Shown here in pieces: positions 21,424-47,864 of a stretch of 64,000 bases of DNA. The stretch's first letter is position 1, and every line of letters starts with the position of its first letter. The notes below the pieces were generated by a model. The model was not told where the DNA came from, searched no databases, and was given only the letters and a program-made list of their open reading frames with translations. The DNA comes from a virus. Taxonomy: Duplodnaviria > Caudoviricetes. Location: positions 52,844 through 116,843 of the IMG/VR virus record IMGVR_UViG_3300048819_000142; one strand, given 5' to 3'. The translations under genes and the position numbers were made by a program.

Positions 21424-22542
21424 TTACTTCGTCGAGATGACCTCGGCGAGCTGAACCGCCCTCTTGAGGGCAGAAGTCTTGGTTGCTGCTTTCGGACCAA
21501 ACCACGCGCTGTATATGGCGTTGTCGCGGTCGCGACCGGCGAGGTGGTCCGCATAATACGTTGTCGCGTTGAAGGCTCCCCAAAGAGTCCCCCTGGCCGA
21601 TTCCATCTCAGCACCGGGCTGGCGCTCGATTGCCTTGAACACGTCGTAAGCCGTCCGCTTGAATTGGTCGGGATTTATGCGGGGCGATGTGGGATCGACG
21701 ATGAGCTTGGCTTGGTCCGCCTCACTCTTCTTCGCATAACCTTTTCCGAATGCCTCAATCATCATTTCCGGTTGAAACACGTCTGCTACGTACCGGATGA
21801 CAACGTCATCGTCGATGACAGTCTTTGCCAGCTTGTTTGCCGTTGACTCGAATCCCTCGAAAAGCTCGCTCGCGATACCGAGGGATATCTGTGCCTGCTG
21901 AGCAGTTTCTCCGTCAAACGCCCGAATGTGCGGCATGCGAAAGCCCTTACCGTGCGAGGATTCGTTCATCGCCATCGTGAATGTGTTCATGCACACAACG
22001 CGAATGGTGACGAACTTAATGACGAACGACTTTCCCCAAATATGCGGAGAGCTCAACAACAGATAGCCATGCACTTCGTCCCCGCCGGGGAGGACGAACG
22101 ACTTCTTGAGCTTTGCGAGAACCCATACCTGTTTCCCATCCTGGAGCGACCCAGCTGTCTCCATGCGCATGTGTCCTGCGTCGGTGAATTTCTTGAAGAA
22201 GTTGAAGGCTTGCGCGTTCTGTATAGGAATGTAGTCCTTACCAGCAGGACCAAGTATCTTGTTGTCCGAGTCGCGAACAAGCGCGAAATAATCCGACACA
22301 GACAGGGAGGTTCCTCCCATATCAAGGTAACCCTTGAAGTCTTTCGCGTCGAAGCCTTCGATCGAGAGGGACGAGGTTGCGGGGGTGAACAGGGGGCGTT
22401 TGCTGACGGTCCAATTAAGTTCCGCTGCAACAAGCATTTCTTCGGGAGTGGCGTCGTGGTCGATGGGATTTCCCAGTCCGTGCCAGGGGACGCTTGCTTG
22501 TCCCTCGTGGCGGTACGCCATTGTTTCGACTTCATGCGGCAT
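21424..22542 (-). CDS. DUF932 family phage/plasmid protein
   Basis: M.HEVETMAY, PWHGLG, Y.P.QN..AF.F, ETAGSL..G..VW, IRVVC.NT, GTLWGAFNA.T.Y.DH. Confidence 0.88.
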   Translation of the reverse strand: MPHEVETMAYRHEGQASVPWHGLGNPIDHDATPEEMLVAAELNWTVSKRPLFTPATSSLSIEGFDAKDFKGYLDMGGTSLSVSDYFALVRDSDNKILGPAGKDYIPIQNAQAFNFFKKFTDAGHMRMETAGSLQDGKQVWVLAKLKKSFVLPGGDEVHGYLLLSSPHIWGKSFVIKFVTIRVVCMNTFTMAMNESSHGKGFRMPHIRAFDGETAQQAQISLGIASELFEGFESTANKLAKTVIDDDVVIRYVADVFQPEMMIEAFGKGYAKKSEADQAKLIVDPTSPRINPDQFKRTAYDVFKAIERQPGAEMESARGTLWGAFNATTYYADHLAGRDRDNAIYSAWFGPKAATKTSALKRAVQLAEVISTK

Positions 22543-22665: not shown

Positions 22666-22962
22666 CTACTTGAGGGTCTCTTCCAGCTCGGCGATCTCGC
22701 GATCCAGGTCCTGGCGCTTCTCTTCCGTCGTCTTCAGGGAGCTCCTGCGAGCTTTTGCTTCGGACAGCCGACGAGCCCGCTCATCGCGAACGCGAGCAGC
22801 GATCTCTCGATCCAGATCATTCACTGCGTTATTCAGCCAGTCGGGCTTATCGAGCTTCTGAGCTTCGTACTCGGCAAAAATAGCCCGAGCATTGGCTCTC
22901 AATTCGATTAGCTCCTCCACGCTGAACTTCGCCACGGTGAGTGTTTTGAGTTTCTCGATCAT
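22666..22962 (-). CDS. Small coiled-coil protein downstream of the Ro60/TROVE gene
   Basis: AAAGGAG RBS before MIEKLK; heptad-like charged C-terminus. Confidence 0.65.
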   Translation of the reverse strand: MIEKLKTLTVAKFSVEELIELRANARAIFAEYEAQKLDKPDWLNNAVNDLDREIAARVRDERARRLSEAKARRSSLKTTEEKRQDLDREIAELEETLK

Positions 22963-23035: not shown

Positions 23036-24514
23036 TCAGGCATGGGCGAGGTCCCTTGTTTCAAGCTTAAGGACGTCGGCCAAGGACAGCAGAGGCTGCT
23101 CCATGATCTCGTCCACGAGGCTGTACCGATTGGTCCTCATGGTCTCAACCATGTTGGGCAGCGAGTAGTAGTCAGCGGCGCTGGTGATCGGGAATTCATG
23201 CAGTTCCAGTCCCTCGCCGCTGCAATTGCTTGTGAGCACGTTCCGATCTCCGGGAACGTGGTAGAAGTACACAGGAACCTGACGATCAAGCATCTTCGTC
23301 AATTCCTTGTATGCTGTTGCGAATGCCGGCGGGTGGTTCTCGCCCCCGTCAGAAACGATTGCGATACCGTCCACCGCGAACTTTCGCTCAACAATGTATC
23401 GGCACCCGACACCGATAGACGTGCTGCCATTCGCCACCATTCTTGCTGTGATCTTCTGCACATCTTCAAGGGTCTTCCCAGTAACGTCAAAGTATGTGGG
23501 TGACGTATTGAAGAATACCAGGTGAACCCTTCCTTTTGCTACTCGGGCAAGCAGCGCAGAGAGCGACTTCGCTACTTCCATGGAAACTTGCATGGAGGAC
23601 GAAGCATCAGCCAGGACCAACCAGTCACCTTCAAGGGAGGTCTTGTCGAGCTTCTTTTCCTGCACAGCTCGAACCTTCTCCTTGAACTCGTCGTCGTCCA
23701 AAGCGTCTGCTGCCTGCGACAGTTTCATCACGTTCGATGTCCCAGTCGCGACTCGGCCAAGCGCTTTTTCGAGAGCGCCTCGAAGTGTTGGATCCTTGCG
23801 AATCCCAAGCTTCTCGAGCATCTTCATGTGTGAGGTAAGCTCAGCGGGAGTCATGCGGTCGATCATAGCTGCCAGGATGTTCTTGTCCTGGAGCTTTTTC
23901 CCAAGTGCGGGGGCAGCAATGAGGAACGGAATCTTCTTTGTGAGGACCGCTCCAGCTGCTTCAAGCCCGTCCATGATACTCAAGTTGGCAATGGTGTCGA
24001 ACACCGACCCTTTCGGTCGCCCTCCCTCGAATAAGACAGACTTGTTGAATTCGGCCGGCTTCACGCGGCAGAATGCATACAGTTCGTGCATGGTTCGCCT
24101 GTGCTGCACGATGGTCCTTGTCCACTTGCCTGGATTTGCCTCCATCGAGTGCAGGTATGCCTTTACCAGCTTAGGAACAGCTTGGCGACGACCTGCCATT
24201 GATTGGGTCTTGGCGAACCGGACTCCACGCAACAGGTCCCTCGGGGAGAGCAATGCCAGGTGCGCCTTGGCATTGTCCATCAAGACAGGATCGCCGTGTT
24301 CGCGGGAGATCATGCTCTCGAGGGAGATCAACGGTAGAGCAACCTTGGCGTCCCTGATCTGGCCCTTGCGTGCATTCCAAGCTACAAGGTGTGCGAAGAA
24401 TTCGGGATCTTCCCGAGCGGCTTGCCGACCGAGCGGCAAATATTCCTCAAGTTTACCGTGCGGCGATTTTGCCAGTTCTGCAAACACACTCTGCCTCGTC
24501 AGTCCCTGTTCCAT
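23036..24514 (-). CDS. Ro60/Rsr-like TROVE + vWA domain RNA-binding protein
   Basis: DPEFFAHL..W....IRD TROVE-like N-terminus, helical middle region, vWA MIDAS DASSSM...T...SDGGEN; GAGAGG RBS 6 nt before MEQGL. Confidence 0.8.
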   Translation of the reverse strand: MEQGLTRQSVFAELAKSPHGKLEEYLPLGRQAAREDPEFFAHLVAWNARKGQIRDAKVALPLISLESMISREHGDPVLMDNAKAHLALLSPRDLLRGVRFAKTQSMAGRRQAVPKLVKAYLHSMEANPGKWTRTIVQHRRTMHELYAFCRVKPAEFNKSVLFEGGRPKGSVFDTIANLSIMDGLEAAGAVLTKKIPFLIAAPALGKKLQDKNILAAMIDRMTPAELTSHMKMLEKLGIRKDPTLRGALEKALGRVATGTSNVMKLSQAADALDDDEFKEKVRAVQEKKLDKTSLEGDWLVLADASSSMQVSMEVAKSLSALLARVAKGRVHLVFFNTSPTYFDVTGKTLEDVQKITARMVANGSTSIGVGCRYIVERKFAVDGIAIVSDGGENHPPAFATAYKELTKMLDRQVPVYFYHVPGDRNVLTSNCSGEGLELHEFPITSAADYYSLPNMVETMRTNRYSLVDEIMEQPLLSLADVLKLETRDLAHA

Positions 24515-24539
24515 GATCATCCTCTCTCGTAAAATAGCA

Positions 24540-24561
24540 GCGGCCTCCGTGTGGAGGCCGC
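24540..24561 (-). terminator. Hairpin between the RNA array and the Ro60 gene
   Basis: GCGGCCTCC-ACAC-GGAGGCCGC followed by TGCTATTTT on the minus strand. Confidence 0.55.
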
Positions 24562-24570
24562 AGAAGCAAA

Positions 24571-24632
24571 TCGCGAAGTGTCGGTTAGTGCTTTCATGCA
24601 CCCAAAGCGTGTACACTAGCCAGTGTCCGCGA
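24571..24632 (-). ncRNA. Y-RNA-like unit 1 (short hairpin cargo)
   Basis: Scaffold CGG-ACAC-TGG-N6-TACAC...N6-CCG-ACACTT-CG. Confidence 0.7.
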
Positions 24633-24650
24633 AAACGCAGAAAAAATGAA

Positions 24651-24812
24651 ACGGCCCGATGTGTCGAAGTTCTAAAATTAGCTGAGCTAATCCCCCACAG
24701 ACCTCGCAAGGTCTCCCTCACGAAATCTGTGGGGGATCTTGGATTCGAACCAAGGACCATCAGCGGTGAAGCTGAGGCTCTATCCGTGTAAGAACGCCAG
24801 TAACCGGGCCGT
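24651..24812 (-). ncRNA. Y-RNA-like unit 2 carrying a tRNA circularly permuted at the D-loop
   Basis: Scaffold + GGATAGAGC, TCAGC/GCTGA arm, CTTGG-TTCGAAT-CCAAG T-arm, ATCCCCC...GGGGGAT acceptor stem, TAGCTCAG. Confidence 0.8.
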
Positions 24813-24820
24813 AAAATCAA

Positions 24821-24951
24821 CGAGCGATGTGTCGGCATACGTCACCAAACGGCCCCCGATAAGTTTGAATGGCGGGGGGCCCGGGTATGAGCCGGACTCC
24901 GGGTATCACTACCCGAATGTTTCTACGTGTATGTATTCCAGTAACCGCTCG
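24821..24951 (-). ncRNA. Y-RNA-like unit 3 carrying a degenerate permuted tRNA-like domain with internal CCA
   Basis: Scaffold + AAAC/GTTT D-stem, GNRA-capped arm, CCGG-CTCATAC-CCGG T-like arm, CCCCCC-G-CCA...GGGGG. Confidence 0.7.
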
Positions 24952-25037
24952 AACTTAAAAAGGGAGCTGGGCCGCCTCGTTGGCCGTGAGTTTGTTGCCT
25001 GAGCTCCCCGCATCGACAAATCTGTCGACGAAAACTT

Positions 25038-25161
25038 GTCCCCGAAATGTCTGCAAGCTGTTTCGCCTTACGGCGACGGCGGATTTGACCCGCAACCTTC
25101 TGATTAAGAGTCAGACGCTCTACAAGTGAGCTACGTGTAAGCTTACAAGTGTCCGGGGGAC
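25038..25161 (-). ncRNA. Y-RNA-like unit 4 carrying tRNA-Lys(CTT) D, anticodon and T arms
   Basis: Scaffold + TAGCTC-ACTTGTA-GAGC, TCTGA-CTCTTAA-TCAGA, AGGTT, GCGG-GTCAAAT-CCGC; no acceptor stem or CCA. Confidence 0.8.
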
Positions 25162-25174
25162 ACCATAATAACTT

Positions 25175-25249
25175 GATCCCGAAGAGTCGGTGTGCTATTT
25201 TTGTGCTGATAGATGGGATATCATGTAAGCACGCCAGTGTCCGGGAATC
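25175..25249 (-). ncRNA. Y-RNA-like unit 5 (short cargo)
   Basis: Scaffold CGG-ACAC-TGG-CGTGCT-TACAT...AGCACA-CCG-ACTCTT-CG. Confidence 0.7.
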
Positions 25250-25336: not shown

Positions 25337-25367
25337 ATTGTACAACAAGGATTGTCGGGTGTAACGG
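25337..25367 (-). promoter_or_regulatory. Phage CCG-N22-(-10) promoter upstream of the RNA array and Ro60 gene
   Basis: CCGTTACACCCGACAATCCTTGTTG-TACAAT. Confidence 0.7.
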
Positions 25368-47271: not shown

Positions 47272-47765
47272 ACTCCCCAGCCTTTCTGTTGCCAGGACTC
47301 GCCTGTCGGCGAGTGGCCGGGATACCCCGCTGTCCGCTGCTTATTAGGCTGCGGCTGCCATGGCGAAGGCCGGAGCCTGCGCCCTGACGGGCATGACTAC
47401 AAGATTGCTCTTGGCGTCTTTTGTTCACGCTGTTTGGGCCTCGAAGTCGAGCTATATCTCGCAAGCGAGCACGAACTCAACAACACTCAGCCTCGGTAGT
47501 CGTCTACCGCTTGTCTCCACAGTCATTTTCAGCCCCGTCGAAACCGTTCGCCCCCATAAGAAAAGTTATGGTGGAGGCGCCGGCATCCGAGAGCCGGGTC
47601 CGCAACTGATATTTTCTGCTTCAACGACAAGATCAATCTTTTTCTTCGCTCGATAGTCCTGCATAAGACTTGAGTGCGCTGTTCCCTGGACCACTACCCA
47701 GGGATATGAAGGTTCGGAGTTGTCTTTTGCAGACTTGCACTGTTCCGAACCACCCGCCGGGGAAC
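47272..47765 (-). ncRNA. ssrA: Circularly permuted (two-piece) tmRNA; tag (A)AKSNLVVMPVRAQAPAFAMAAAA
   Basis: Acceptor piece ends ...GCCGGCGCCTCCACCA at 47569; 13-nt spacer; coding piece starts GGGGGCGAACGGTTTCGAC at 47555; G3-U70 pair; P2 pairing GACAAG/CTTGTC; tag ORF 47415-47341 ends AAAA then TAA TAA; outer ends approximate. Confidence 0.9.
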
Positions 47766-47787: not shown

Positions 47788-47864
47788 TGGTTGTCCCGGC
47801 CAGACTCGAACTGGCGACCTCTTGCTTAGGAGGCGAGCGCTCTATCCAGCTGAGCTACGGGACA
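47788..47864 (-). tRNA. tRNA-Arg (CCT)
   Basis: TGTCCCG/CGGGACA acceptor stem, GCTC/GAGC D-arm, CTCCTAA anticodon loop, TTCGAGT T-loop, encoded CCA. Confidence 0.92.

What the first reader, a model, noticed from the sequence alone, without database searches (positions are those of the whole stretch)
25038..25161. tRNA-Lys(CUU) body whose acceptor stem is replaced by the shared scaffold: candidate anticodon-nuclease decoy
Seen: intact D arm (GCTC/GAGC), a canonical Lys anticodon arm TCTGA-CTCTTAA-TCAGA, variable loop AGGTT and a T-like arm GCGG-GTCAAAT-CCGC, but only ~3 bp of acceptor stem and no CCA. A TCGCC-GTAA-GGCGA hairpin and the scaffold follow instead. Established: tRNA-Lys species are targets of anti-phage anticodon nucleases such as PrrC and PARIS AriB. 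Inference: an uncharged RNA displaying a Lys anticodon loop could titrate such nucleases or engage LysRS/modification enzymes.
Basis: partly seen in the sequence, partly recalled or inferred. Interest (0 to 1): 0.75.

Follow-up and report, generated by a model that had tools for sequence, protein, structure and literature searches.

The report
tRNA-shaped cargo on phage Y RNA
This is a small phage RNA that carries an almost complete tRNA body with a free anticodon arm on a stem shared by five neighbouring RNAs beside a very divergent Ro60 gene; the Lys triplet is not conserved in related phages.

Summary
On the minus strand at 25161-25036 lies a tRNA body. Rfam tRNA scores it 43.3 bits over model positions 5-66. 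It has D, anticodon and T arms, a CUCUUAA loop, a 3-bp acceptor stub and no CCA, followed directly by a GNRA-capped hairpin. All of this is enclosed by a two-part stem that all five units of the array share.

The gene downstream has no Pfam TROVE match, but its predicted fold is Ro60. The locus is therefore a phage Ro60/Y-RNA system of a divergent, uncultured clade.

Forty-six non-redundant orthologous units from related phages keep the same design. In the 40 with 7-nt loops, U33, R37 and A38 and the 5-bp stem are kept. The triplet is not: there are 20 different triplets, CUU occurs in 4, and a quarter have A34. The closest relative has AUA.

A Lys-specific decoy is therefore unlikely. A generic tRNA-shape mimic on a Ro60-binding scaffold is the best reading.

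It differs from YrlA. It is not permuted through the anticodon stem, it keeps the anticodon loop, and it fails the YrlA model. It is a new variant of a known kind. The scan had already noted this array and this unit on the same genome. Peat metatranscriptome contigs cover the array.

The parts
25337..25365 (-). Promoter-like site upstream of the RNA array (GTTACA, 17 nt, TACAAT)
   Evidence: Consensus scan, 9 of 12 matches. The closest relative has TTGACC-17-TACAAT at the same place. RNA-library contigs extend about 50 nt further upstream, to 25415, so the true start is not fixed.
25175..25249 (-). Array unit 1: the shared scaffold with a small non-tRNA cargo
   Evidence: Scaffold repeat family. 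Fold gives the same outer stem, internal loop and inner stem, z = -3.37.
25036..25161 (-). Array unit 2, the finding: scaffold plus a non-permuted tRNA-like cargo with a free anticodon arm
   Evidence: Rfam tRNA 43.3 bits. Fold z = -3.63. RNAalifold on 14 orthologous units finds 24 of 32 pairs with compensatory changes.
25076..25136 (-). tRNA body: 3-bp acceptor stub, D arm, anticodon arm (CUU at 25108-25106), variable loop and T-like arm
   Evidence: Alignment to the Rfam tRNA model, positions 5-66. My own model R1 scores it 70.4 bits, but it was one of the seed sequences.
25064..25075 (-). GNRA-capped hairpin (CGCC-GUAA-GGCG) directly abutting the acceptor stub. Stub plus hairpin give 7 bp, a closed acceptor-arm mimic; this reading is an inference.
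   Evidence: Sequence. A GNRA hairpin follows the stub in 31 of 46 non-redundant orthologous units. In 15 of these there is no spacer, and stub plus hairpin then sum mostly to 7 or 9 bp. All four hairpin pairs are mostly kept; three show compensatory changes and one is invariant.
25140..25162 (-). Scaffold 5' strands of unit 2: outer stem, ACA-type internal loop and inner stem. The conserved UACACG linker (25139-25134) follows directly.
   Evidence: Direct-repeat families D1 and D2 are shared by all five units. MFE fold. Covariation in the outer and inner stems.
25037..25059 (-). Scaffold 3' strands of unit 2: inner stem, a GACAU-type internal loop related to the CGACU motif of other units, and outer stem
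24820..24951 (-). Array unit 3: the same scaffold with an aberrant tRNA-like cargo
   Evidence: Scaffold repeats. Fold z = -1.87. Not analysed further here.
24651..24812 (-). Array unit 4: the same scaffold with a permuted, YrlA-style cargo (T arm, long closed hairpin, D-like arm)
   Evidence: Fold z = -8.30. Weak Rfam tRNA partial match at 14.6 bits. Homologous units occur in L001 and L008.
24568..24633 (-). Array unit 5: the same scaffold with a small cargo
   Evidence: An orthologous unit occurs in L001.
24530..24561 (-). Terminator-like hairpin with a U-rich tail between the array and the protein gene
   Evidence: 9-bp stem with 8 G-C pairs, then UGCUAUUUUA. The equivalent hairpin occurs in L001.
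23036..24517 (-). 493-aa divergent Ro60-like protein: helical-repeat ring plus a vWA domain with a MIDAS motif
   Evidence: Pfam finds only VWA_CoxE and no TROVE. The AF2 model has pLDDT 85.8. The top 13 Foldseek PDB hits are all Ro60/TROVE structures over the full length, E 3e-10 to 1e-7, TM about 0.6. DxSxS, T and D are invariant. 387 representative clusters match at E <= 1e-30.
22666..22962 (-). About 98-aa charged helical protein immediately after the Ro60-like gene, conserved in position. Its membership of the system is inferred from synteny only.
   Evidence: tblastn finds it directly downstream of the Ro-like gene in 58 related loci. It has no Pfam or PHROG family.

Best explanation
The unit is a Y-RNA-like non-coding RNA of a phage Ro60 system. 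It is one of five RNAs made from one array.

Each RNA closes on itself through the same two-part stem with a conserved internal loop. This stem is the presumed binding site of the divergent Ro60-like ring protein encoded just downstream.

The cargo of this unit is a tRNA mimic with a wiring that differs from YrlA:
- The D arm, anticodon arm and T arm are in normal tRNA order.
- The acceptor arm is reduced to a 3-bp stub that stacks on a GNRA-capped hairpin. Together they give a closed 7-bp arm that cannot be aminoacylated.
- The chain enters and leaves through the 5' strand of that arm.
- The anticodon arm therefore stays free.

The RNP presents a generic L-shaped tRNA surface to a host factor that reads tRNA shape. 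That surface is the elbow plus an anticodon loop with a canonical U33/R37/A38 frame. The factor is thereby tethered to, or held at, Ro60. The triplet itself (CUU here) is not what is read.

Shown: the anatomy, the family-wide conservation pattern, the Ro60 fold and the synteny. Inferred: Ro60 binding to the scaffold, coaxial stacking of stub and hairpin, and the existence and nature of the tRNA-shape-reading partner.
For: - Body: Rfam tRNA 43.3 bits over positions 5-66. The same truncated tRNA match (positions 5-66, 6-65 or 7-64; 45-54 bits) occurs at the orthologous units of six related phages with an independent model.
- Scaffold: it is shared by all five units.
- Covariation: RNAalifold on 14 whole units recovers the outer and inner scaffold stems, the D, anticodon and T arms and the GNRA hairpin. 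24 of 32 pairs show compensatory changes.
- Protein: it has a Ro60 fold with an intact MIDAS motif.
- Synteny: model R1 finds units of this type upstream of the gene, on the same strand, in 47 of the related IMG/VR loci. A motif scan of all IMG/VR gave 18 scaffolded matches. Seventeen had the Ro-like gene downstream within the DNA held or on a contig already known to carry it. The other matches were ordinary tRNAs.
- Loop frame versus triplet, in 40 non-redundant units with 7-nt loops: U33 in 37, purine 37 in 39, A38 in 36, and anticodon stem paired in 197 of 200 cells. There are 20 different triplets.
- Rates: among units at least 85% identical in the D/T body, triplet sites differ at 64%, stem sites at 41% (pairing kept) and other sites at 11%.
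- GNRA hairpin: it abuts the stub in 31 of 46 units.
- Expression: RNA-library contigs from three peat metatranscriptomes cover the unit at 100% identity.
- Literature: tRNA-mimicking Y RNAs encoded next to Ro60 in bacteria and phages are established (PMC4201824; bioRxiv 10.1101/312249; PMC12135203).
Against: - No binding between this protein and this scaffold has been shown.
- The scaffold lacks the GNCGAA(N)G motif proposed for Rsr recognition.
- The protein fails the TROVE HMM.
- This copy has the least canonical elbow of the family: one G in the D loop, G in place of U54 and a 4-bp T stem. This weakens a function that depends on the elbow.
- Contigs from RNA libraries cannot prove transcription, give ends or exclude DNA carry-over.
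- The conserved U33/R37/A38 frame could partly reflect how the units were collected, since they were found with a tRNA-like model.
- No partner protein is identified.
Confidence: 0.55

Rival explanations
1. Lys-specific decoy. The uncharged RNA displays a tRNA-Lys(CUU) anticodon loop to titrate or be cut by a Lys-directed anticodon nuclease, or to engage LysRS or Lys-tRNA modification enzymes.
For: - The loop CUCUUAA on a 5-bp stem is a canonical Lys(CUU) arm.
- The capped acceptor arm excludes charging.
- CUU is the second commonest triplet in the family, 4 of 40.
- The contig carries no tRNA-Lys of its own.
Against: - The triplet is not conserved. There are 20 triplets in 40 orthologous units, and the positional orthologue in the closest relative reads AUA.
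- 10 of 40 have A34 and only one of those is ACG. Many units therefore imitate no natural bacterial tRNA.
- The body's nearest relatives carry other triplets.
- E. coli has only the UUU Lys isoacceptor, so the Lys-directed nucleases described there act on UUU (own knowledge).
- Salmonella YrlA was not cut by the anticodon nuclease studied (PMC7790460).
Confidence: 0.08
2. Exchangeable decoy. The family displays whole anticodon arms as inhibitors or baits for host tRNA-directed defence nucleases. Each phage carries the triplet that matches its own host's threat, and units are swapped between phages.
For: - The loop frame is conserved while the triplet is saturated with change.
- Two phages whose Ro-like genes differ at 2 of about 3,000 positions carry unit regions that differ at about 32% of positions. 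This is a cassette exchange.
- The free anticodon arm is the feature that sets this wiring apart from YrlA.
- The family is almost restricted to phage contigs.
Against: - In the pair L008/L009, change in the anticodon arm (4 of 17 positions) is about what the 16% background divergence predicts. No excess over neutral is shown.
- A34 triplets match no natural target.
- The cassette exchange is a single case and replaces the whole unit, not the arm.
- No nuclease, repair gene or RtcB lies in the phage.
Confidence: 0.2
3. Relic. This copy is a decaying member of the array that is still transcribed but no longer functional.
For: It is the only unit of 46 that clearly lacks the D-loop GG, and one of two that lack GUUCRA in the T loop. 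Its R1 and Rfam scores are below those of most orthologues.
Against: - All stems are intact: scaffold, D, anticodon, 4-bp T and hairpin.
- The loop frame is canonical.
- No variant positions were reported within the unit in the four peat runs laid, one DNA and three RNA.
- The two elbow changes could compensate for each other.
Confidence: 0.1
4. Precursor of a working tRNA-Lys that is cut out of the scaffold by RNase P and RNase Z and given CCA.
For: M. smegmatis YrlA, which has a 7-bp acceptor stem, is cut by RNase P and receives CCA (PMC4201824). Some orthologous units have 6-10 bp acceptor stems, and one in L008 even encodes ACCA.
Against: - Here the acceptor stem is 3 bp and its 3' strand runs straight into a GNRA hairpin.
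- ARAGORN does not call it.
- There is no discriminator or CCA.
- Units 1 and 5 use the same scaffold without any tRNA body.
Confidence: 0.02

Closest known systems
YrlA (Y RNA-like A; Rfam RF02553; Chen et al. 2014, PMC4201824; structure in bioRxiv 10.1101/312249)
   Same: A non-coding RNA encoded within a few hundred bases of a Ro60-type gene on the same strand, in phages as well as bacteria. The 5' and 3' ends pair into a stem. The cargo mimics tRNA with D and T arms. The acceptor arm is closed and has no free CCA.
   Different: - YrlA is joined to the Ro-binding stem through the anticodon stem and 'lacks the anticodon loop'. Here the junction is in the acceptor arm and the whole anticodon arm is present.
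- The arm order is D-AC-T, not T-AS-D.
- No RF02553 match at E <= 10, nor at gathering score in seven related loci.
- No GNCGAA(N)G motif.
- The partner protein fails the TROVE HMM.
Deinococcus radiodurans Yrn1 (Chen et al. 2014, PMC4201824)
   Same: The stem-loop between the D-like and T arms takes the place of the anticodon arm, which is the same orientation as here. The RNA is bound by a Ro60 orthologue and acts as a tether to PNPase.
   Different: As described in the paper, Yrn1 has a 6-nt 'anticodon loop', no variable arm and only partial D-loop features. Here there is a full cloverleaf body that passes the Rfam tRNA threshold, with a 7-nt loop and a U33/R37 frame. Sequence relatedness to Yrn1 was not tested.
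Thermus phage phiLo Ro60 with Yrl1 and Yrl2 (PMC12135203; PDB 9KOP, 9L5Y)
   Same: A phage-encoded Ro60 of low sequence identity to cellular ones, with Y-like RNAs encoded upstream. Its structures are the best and third-best fold matches of the protein here.
   Different: The phiLo RNAs were picked by a CGAA motif in a stem-bulge-stem and are not described as tRNA bodies. Here there are five units, a different scaffold motif and tRNA-type cargoes. Protein identity is about 16%.
Canonical tRNA-Lys(CUU) (Rfam RF00005)
   Same: D arm, 5-bp anticodon stem, 7-nt loop CUCUUAA, 5-nt variable loop and a T-like arm. The score is above the family's gathering threshold.
   Different: There are 3 bp instead of 7 in the acceptor stem, no discriminator or CCA, and the ends are buried in a scaffold. 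There is one G in the D loop and G in place of U54. Orthologues carry other triplets.

Membership tests
tRNA (RF00005) | Cloverleaf body (D, anticodon and T arms) scoring above the curated threshold | tested here: met
   43.3 bits against a gathering score of 29, model positions 5-66.
tRNA (RF00005) | 7-bp acceptor stem with free ends, a discriminator base and CCA or a site for its addition | tested here: not met
   3-bp stub. The 3' strand continues into a GNRA hairpin and the scaffold. ARAGORN makes no call.
tRNA (RF00005) | Anticodon kept among orthologues, as expected of a decoding tRNA | tested here: not met
   20 triplets among 40 orthologous units, and A34 in 10.
YrlA (RF02553) | Match to the family covariance model | tested here: not met
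   No hit in the array at E <= 10. No hit at gathering score in seven related loci.
YrlA (RF02553) | Encoded within about 4 kb of a Ro60 orthologue on the same strand | tested here: met
   The unit lies about 520 nt upstream of the Ro60-fold gene on the same strand. The same arrangement holds in 47 related loci.
YrlA (RF02553) | Permuted order T arm, closed acceptor stem-loop, D arm, joined to the Ro-binding stem through the anticodon stem, with no anticodon loop | tested here: not met
   The order is D, anticodon arm, T. The anticodon loop is present and the junction is in the acceptor arm. Unit 4 of the same array has the YrlA-type order.
YrlA (RF02553) | GNCGAA(N0-1)G motif near the 5' end | tested here: not met
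   The motif is absent from all five units. The conserved motifs here are ACUG-type on the 5' strand, the UACAYG linker and CGACU-type on the 3' strand.
Y RNA (functional class) | Bound by a Ro60 protein | not testable with these tools
   Only synteny and a shared scaffold support it.
Y RNA (functional class) | 5' and 3' ends pair into a stem that carries a conserved internal loop or bulge, with a variable module beyond it | tested here: met
   Folds of all five units. Covariation in both scaffold stems.
Ro60 / TROVE (partner protein) | Match to Pfam TROVE (PF05731) | tested here: not met
   No match at E <= 10 on the protein or at E <= 1 in six frames of the contig. No PDB sequence match.
Ro60 / TROVE (partner protein) | Ring of helical repeats followed by a vWA domain with a MIDAS motif | tested here: met
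   The top 13 Foldseek PDB hits are Ro60/TROVE structures aligned over the full length, E 3e-10 to 1e-7. DASSS, T366 and D390 are invariant.
Anticodon-nuclease decoy (proposed function) | Anticodon loop that imitates the nuclease's natural tRNA target, kept where the function is kept | tested here: inconclusive
   The loop frame is kept and the triplet is not. A quarter of triplets are non-natural. No nuclease is known for these hosts.

The most novel reading that the evidence does not exclude
A large clade of uncultured soil and peat phages uses a divergent Ro60 ring as a platform. The platform displays whole anticodon arms that are uncharged and acceptor-capped. Their triplets are exchanged between phages as cassettes. 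The arms act as tunable baits or inhibitors for host defence nucleases that cut tRNA anticodon loops. This would be an RNA-based counter-defence in which Ro60 either protects the bait or hands the captured nuclease or cut RNA to decay.
Probability: 0.12. Interest if true: 0.85.

Novelty: new variant of a known kind. Interest (0 to 1): 0.55.

Why it matters
Bacterial and phage Y RNAs are known to mimic tRNA, but the partner that reads the mimic has not been found. The described mimics lack an anticodon loop.

Here a large family that no protein or RNA family model recognises shows a second way of wiring a tRNA body onto a Ro60 scaffold, one that leaves the anticodon arm free. The family has 387 representative protein clusters at E <= 1e-30 and is almost wholly confined to phage contigs.

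The conservation pattern gives a concrete specification for the unknown partner. The elbow and the U33/R37/A38 loop frame are kept, and the triplet is free.

It also shows that Ro60/Y-RNA systems in phages are much more common than TROVE annotation suggests.

Tried and rejected
- Simple regular expressions for the window's scaffold motifs found units only in the closest relative. I replaced them with a covariance model.
- Sequence searches of the protein against PDB, as a single sequence and as a profile, gave nothing relevant. Only the fold search identified it.
- PHROGs matched only the vWA part, to an 'RNA-binding protein' family.
- There is no RtcB in the contig.
- GenBank phages hold one distant relative, at 26% identity, in an uncultured 595-kb phage and none in a cultured phage.
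- Species genomes hold 7 relatives, all on MAG contigs, four of them binned as Acidobacteria. This is too weak to name a host.
- The complex prediction of the Ro-like protein with the conserved 98-aa neighbour gave no verdict, with scores 0.00, 0.39 and 0.00.
- Two reviews on bacterial Y RNAs (PMC10870794, PMC6047535) are not held. My statement that this wiring is undescribed therefore rests on the papers I could read and on two literature searches.
- I considered positive selection on the triplet. In L008/L009 the arm changes at about the background rate. In L062/L066 the whole unit was exchanged. I therefore make no claim of selection.
- RNA-library contig depths were not used to rank expression.

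Full report
**What is there.** The window is part of a single 116.8-kb virus record. It encodes phage replication genes: DNA polymerase, helicases, primase and thymidylate synthase. On the minus strand between 25365 and 24530 there is no long conserved ORF. Instead there is a promoter-like site, five RNA units and a terminator-like hairpin. A 493-aa gene follows at 24517-23036.

All five units begin with a copy of one repeat (CGGACACUGG or CGGUUACUGG, a few variable bases, then UACAYG) and end with a CGACA/CGACU-type motif. Each folds on its own into the same frame: an outer stem, a small internal loop and an inner stem, with a different cargo inside.

**The observation.** The finding is unit 2 (25161-25036).
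- Rfam's tRNA model matches 25136-25076 at 43.3 bits against a gathering score of 29. The E-value is 6.8e-06 for the whole window and all families.
- Only model positions 5-66 match, which means the body without the outer acceptor stem.
- ARAGORN does not call it.
- The 130-nt unit folds at -47.8 kcal/mol, z = -3.63. The fold shows the D arm, the anticodon arm with a 7-nt loop, a T-type arm, the hairpin and the scaffold.

The 3' strand of the T stem, the 3-nt acceptor strand (CGU) and the 5' strand of the CGCC-GUAA-GGCG hairpin are contiguous. The 3-bp stub and the 4-bp hairpin can therefore stack into a closed 7-bp arm. That stacking is my inference.

**The neighbouring protein.** Pfam does not: only VWA_CoxE matches. 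TROVE finds nothing on the protein at E <= 10 or in six frames of the contig at E <= 1. PDB sequence searches are also empty.

An AlphaFold model built on 36 homologues has pLDDT 85.8 and pTM 0.70. Its thirteen best Foldseek hits in the PDB are all Ro60/TROVE structures aligned over the full length. They include Thermus phage phiLo Ro60, Xenopus and human Ro60 and D. radiodurans Rsr, with E from 3e-10 to 1e-7 and TM about 0.6. The vWA MIDAS residues (DASSS, T366, D390) are invariant. So it is a Ro60 by fold, at 12-17% identity.

The family is large. It has 387 representative clusters at E <= 1e-30 and 1,285 at E <= 0.001. It is almost confined to phage-sized metagenome contigs. There are 7 hits in 185,579 species genomes, all on MAG contigs. 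One distant hit exists in GenBank phages, from an uncultured phage.

**Relatives of the unit.** The closest relative (62% protein identity, L001/L004) has the same layout: promoter, four units on the same scaffold, terminator, gene. I built a covariance model from six units and searched 69 IMG/VR loci plus the window.
- Forty-six non-redundant hits begin with the UACAYG scaffold linker. They lie in 47 loci and the window, all but one upstream of the Ro-like gene, and all on its strand.
- Rfam's own tRNA model, which is independent of mine, gives the same truncated matches at the orthologous units of six of these phages.
- RNAalifold on 14 whole units recovers both scaffold stems, the D, anticodon and T arms and the hairpin. 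24 of 32 pairs keep pairing through changes on both sides.
- A GNRA-capped hairpin follows the acceptor stub in 31 of 46 units (GCAA 18, GAAA 10, GAGA 2, GUAA 1). In 15 of these there is no spacer, and stub plus hairpin then sum mostly to 7 or 9 bp. Units without the hairpin tend to have longer acceptor stems.
- A scan of all IMG/VR for the linker-plus-D-arm motif returned 28 places. Of the 18 scaffolded ones, 17 had the Ro-like gene downstream within the DNA held or on a contig already known to carry it. The other ten were ordinary tRNAs whose acceptor stem happens to read UACACG.

**The anticodon.** It was run on the 40 non-redundant units with 7-nt loops.

| Feature | Count |
|---|---|
| Position 32 pyrimidine | 35 of 40 |
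| Position 33 U | 37 of 40 |
| Position 37 purine | 39 of 40 |
| Position 38 A | 36 of 40 |
| Anticodon stem cells paired | 197 of 200 |
| Different triplets at 34-36 | 20 |
| A34 | 10 of 40 (only one is ACG) |
| G34 | 2 of 40 |

The commonest triplets are UGA (5), CUU (4), and UGU, AAU, UCC and UUG (3 each). For comparison with U33, only 48 of 120 letters at positions 34-36 are U.

The positional orthologue in the closest relative reads AUA. The nearest relatives of the window's body carry AUA and UGA.

Among pairs of units at least 85% identical in the D/T body, triplet sites differ at 64%, anticodon-stem sites at 41% with pairing kept, and the remaining sites at 11%. These pairs are not independent.

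The elbow is therefore strongly constrained, the anticodon arm is constrained in shape only, and the triplet is free.

I do not claim positive selection.
- L008 and L009 differ by 16% overall, and their arms differ at 4 of 17 positions.
- In L062 and L066 the Ro-like genes differ at 2 of about 3,000 positions, but the whole unit region differs at about a third of its positions. The DNA upstream is rearranged. This is an exchange of the unit, not point mutation.

**Peculiarity of this copy.** The window's unit is the only one of 46 that clearly lacks the D-loop GG, reading ACUUGUA. It is one of two without GUUCRA in the T loop, reading GUCAAAU on a 4-bp stem. These are the positions that make the tRNA elbow, so this copy may have a weakened or re-fitted elbow. 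All its stems are intact. No differences within the unit were listed in the one DNA run and three RNA runs laid.

**Expression.** Three peat metatranscriptome runs hold contigs identical to the array. A 760-nt contig at 24656-25415 occurs in two runs, and a 494-nt contig at 24843-25336 in a third. The DNA run covers the whole region evenly. Contigs cannot give strand, ends or levels, and DNA carry-over cannot be excluded, so this is weak support for transcription. The contigs run about 50 nt upstream of the predicted -35 element.

**How it compares with what is known.** tRNA-mimicking Y RNAs next to Ro60 genes are established in more than 250 bacteria and 22 phages (PMC4201824). A phage Ro60 with two upstream Y-like RNAs has been characterised structurally (PMC12135203).

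YrlA is described as a circularly permuted mimic. It has a closed acceptor stem-loop, it joins the Ro-binding stem through the anticodon stem, and it 'lacks the anticodon loop' (bioRxiv 10.1101/312249). Unit 4 of this array has that order. Unit 2 does not.

D. radiodurans Yrn1 has the same orientation as unit 2 but only a degenerate version, with a 6-nt loop, no variable arm and a partial D loop (PMC4201824).

The Rfam YrlA model finds nothing in the array. The GNCGAA(N)G motif is absent.

The idea that a tRNA-like Y RNA domain could act as a competitive inhibitor of an anticodon nuclease has been raised for Salmonella YrlA (PMC7790460). The decoy idea itself is therefore not new.

I found no description of this wiring, or of this protein clade, in the papers held. 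Two reviews could not be read.

**Verdict.** The unit is a Y-RNA-like tRNA mimic of a new wiring, in a large and unannotated phage Ro60 clade. The Lys reading is not supported as a conserved function: the family keeps the shape and the loop frame, not the triplet.

The most likely mechanism is a Ro60-bound RNA that presents a generic tRNA surface to a host factor that reads tRNA shape (confidence 0.55). A decoy with exchangeable triplets stays possible (0.2). A Lys-specific decoy is unlikely (0.08).

Earlier notes of this scan on the same genome had already described the five-unit array and this unit. I checked the array layout and the YrlA lead myself.

Noticed in passing
window 22666-22962 (-): A charged helical protein of about 98 aa starts inside the end of the Ro60-like gene. 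tblastn finds it directly downstream of that gene in 58 related loci. It has no Pfam or PHROG family and may be a third component of the system.
   Followed up: partly
L062:1745-1860 and L066:1742-1860: Two phages whose Ro-like genes differ at 2 of about 3,000 positions carry tRNA-like units that differ at about a third of their positions, with unrelated DNA upstream. The RNA unit has been exchanged as a cassette.
   Followed up: partly
L008:1866-1990: A scaffolded unit whose tRNA-like cargo has a 7-bp acceptor stem (one mismatch) followed by an encoded ACCA and then a GCAA hairpin. The anticodon loop is irregular. It could be processed like M. smegmatis YrlA.
   Followed up: no
L012:1430-1970, L019:1405-1985, L027:1328-1885: In some relatives an ORF of about 185 aa with cysteine pairs (HNH-like by eye; not searched against any library) sits between the RNA array and the Ro-like gene.
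   Followed up: no
L032:4730-5443, L031:5068-5294, L067:4174-4988, L048:3906-4906: Several related phages carry clusters of ordinary tRNA genes (ARAGORN calls with full acceptor stems) within 1-2 kb downstream of the Ro-like gene.
   Followed up: no
window 47344-47632 (-) and 47788-47864 (-): A permuted (two-piece) tmRNA (Rfam RF04321, 72.4 bits) lies next to a tRNA-Arg(CCU). The whole contig has only one other tRNA (Met).
   Followed up: no
family-wide (alignment A4): Position 34 of the scaffolded units is G in only 2 of 40, against 13 of 70 in the other tRNA-type hits in the same loci, most of which ARAGORN calls as ordinary tRNAs. A34 is found in 10 of 40 against 7 of 70.
   Followed up: partly
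L076:2730-2900: A scaffolded tRNA-like unit, with the end of a preceding unit upstream of it, on a 102-kb viral contig. No Ro-like gene was found by tblastn in the 11 kb held downstream.
   Followed up: no
G000:C1:1-60 (outside the window): The contig begins with tandem copies of an 18-nt unit (CGTCACGTCATTGCCGAG). No direct terminal repeat of 20-399 bases was found.
   Followed up: no
window 21424-22542 (-): A DUF932 / phrog_1221 protein follows the small helical ORF. It is shared only with the closest relative, so it is not part of the conserved module.
   Followed up: partly
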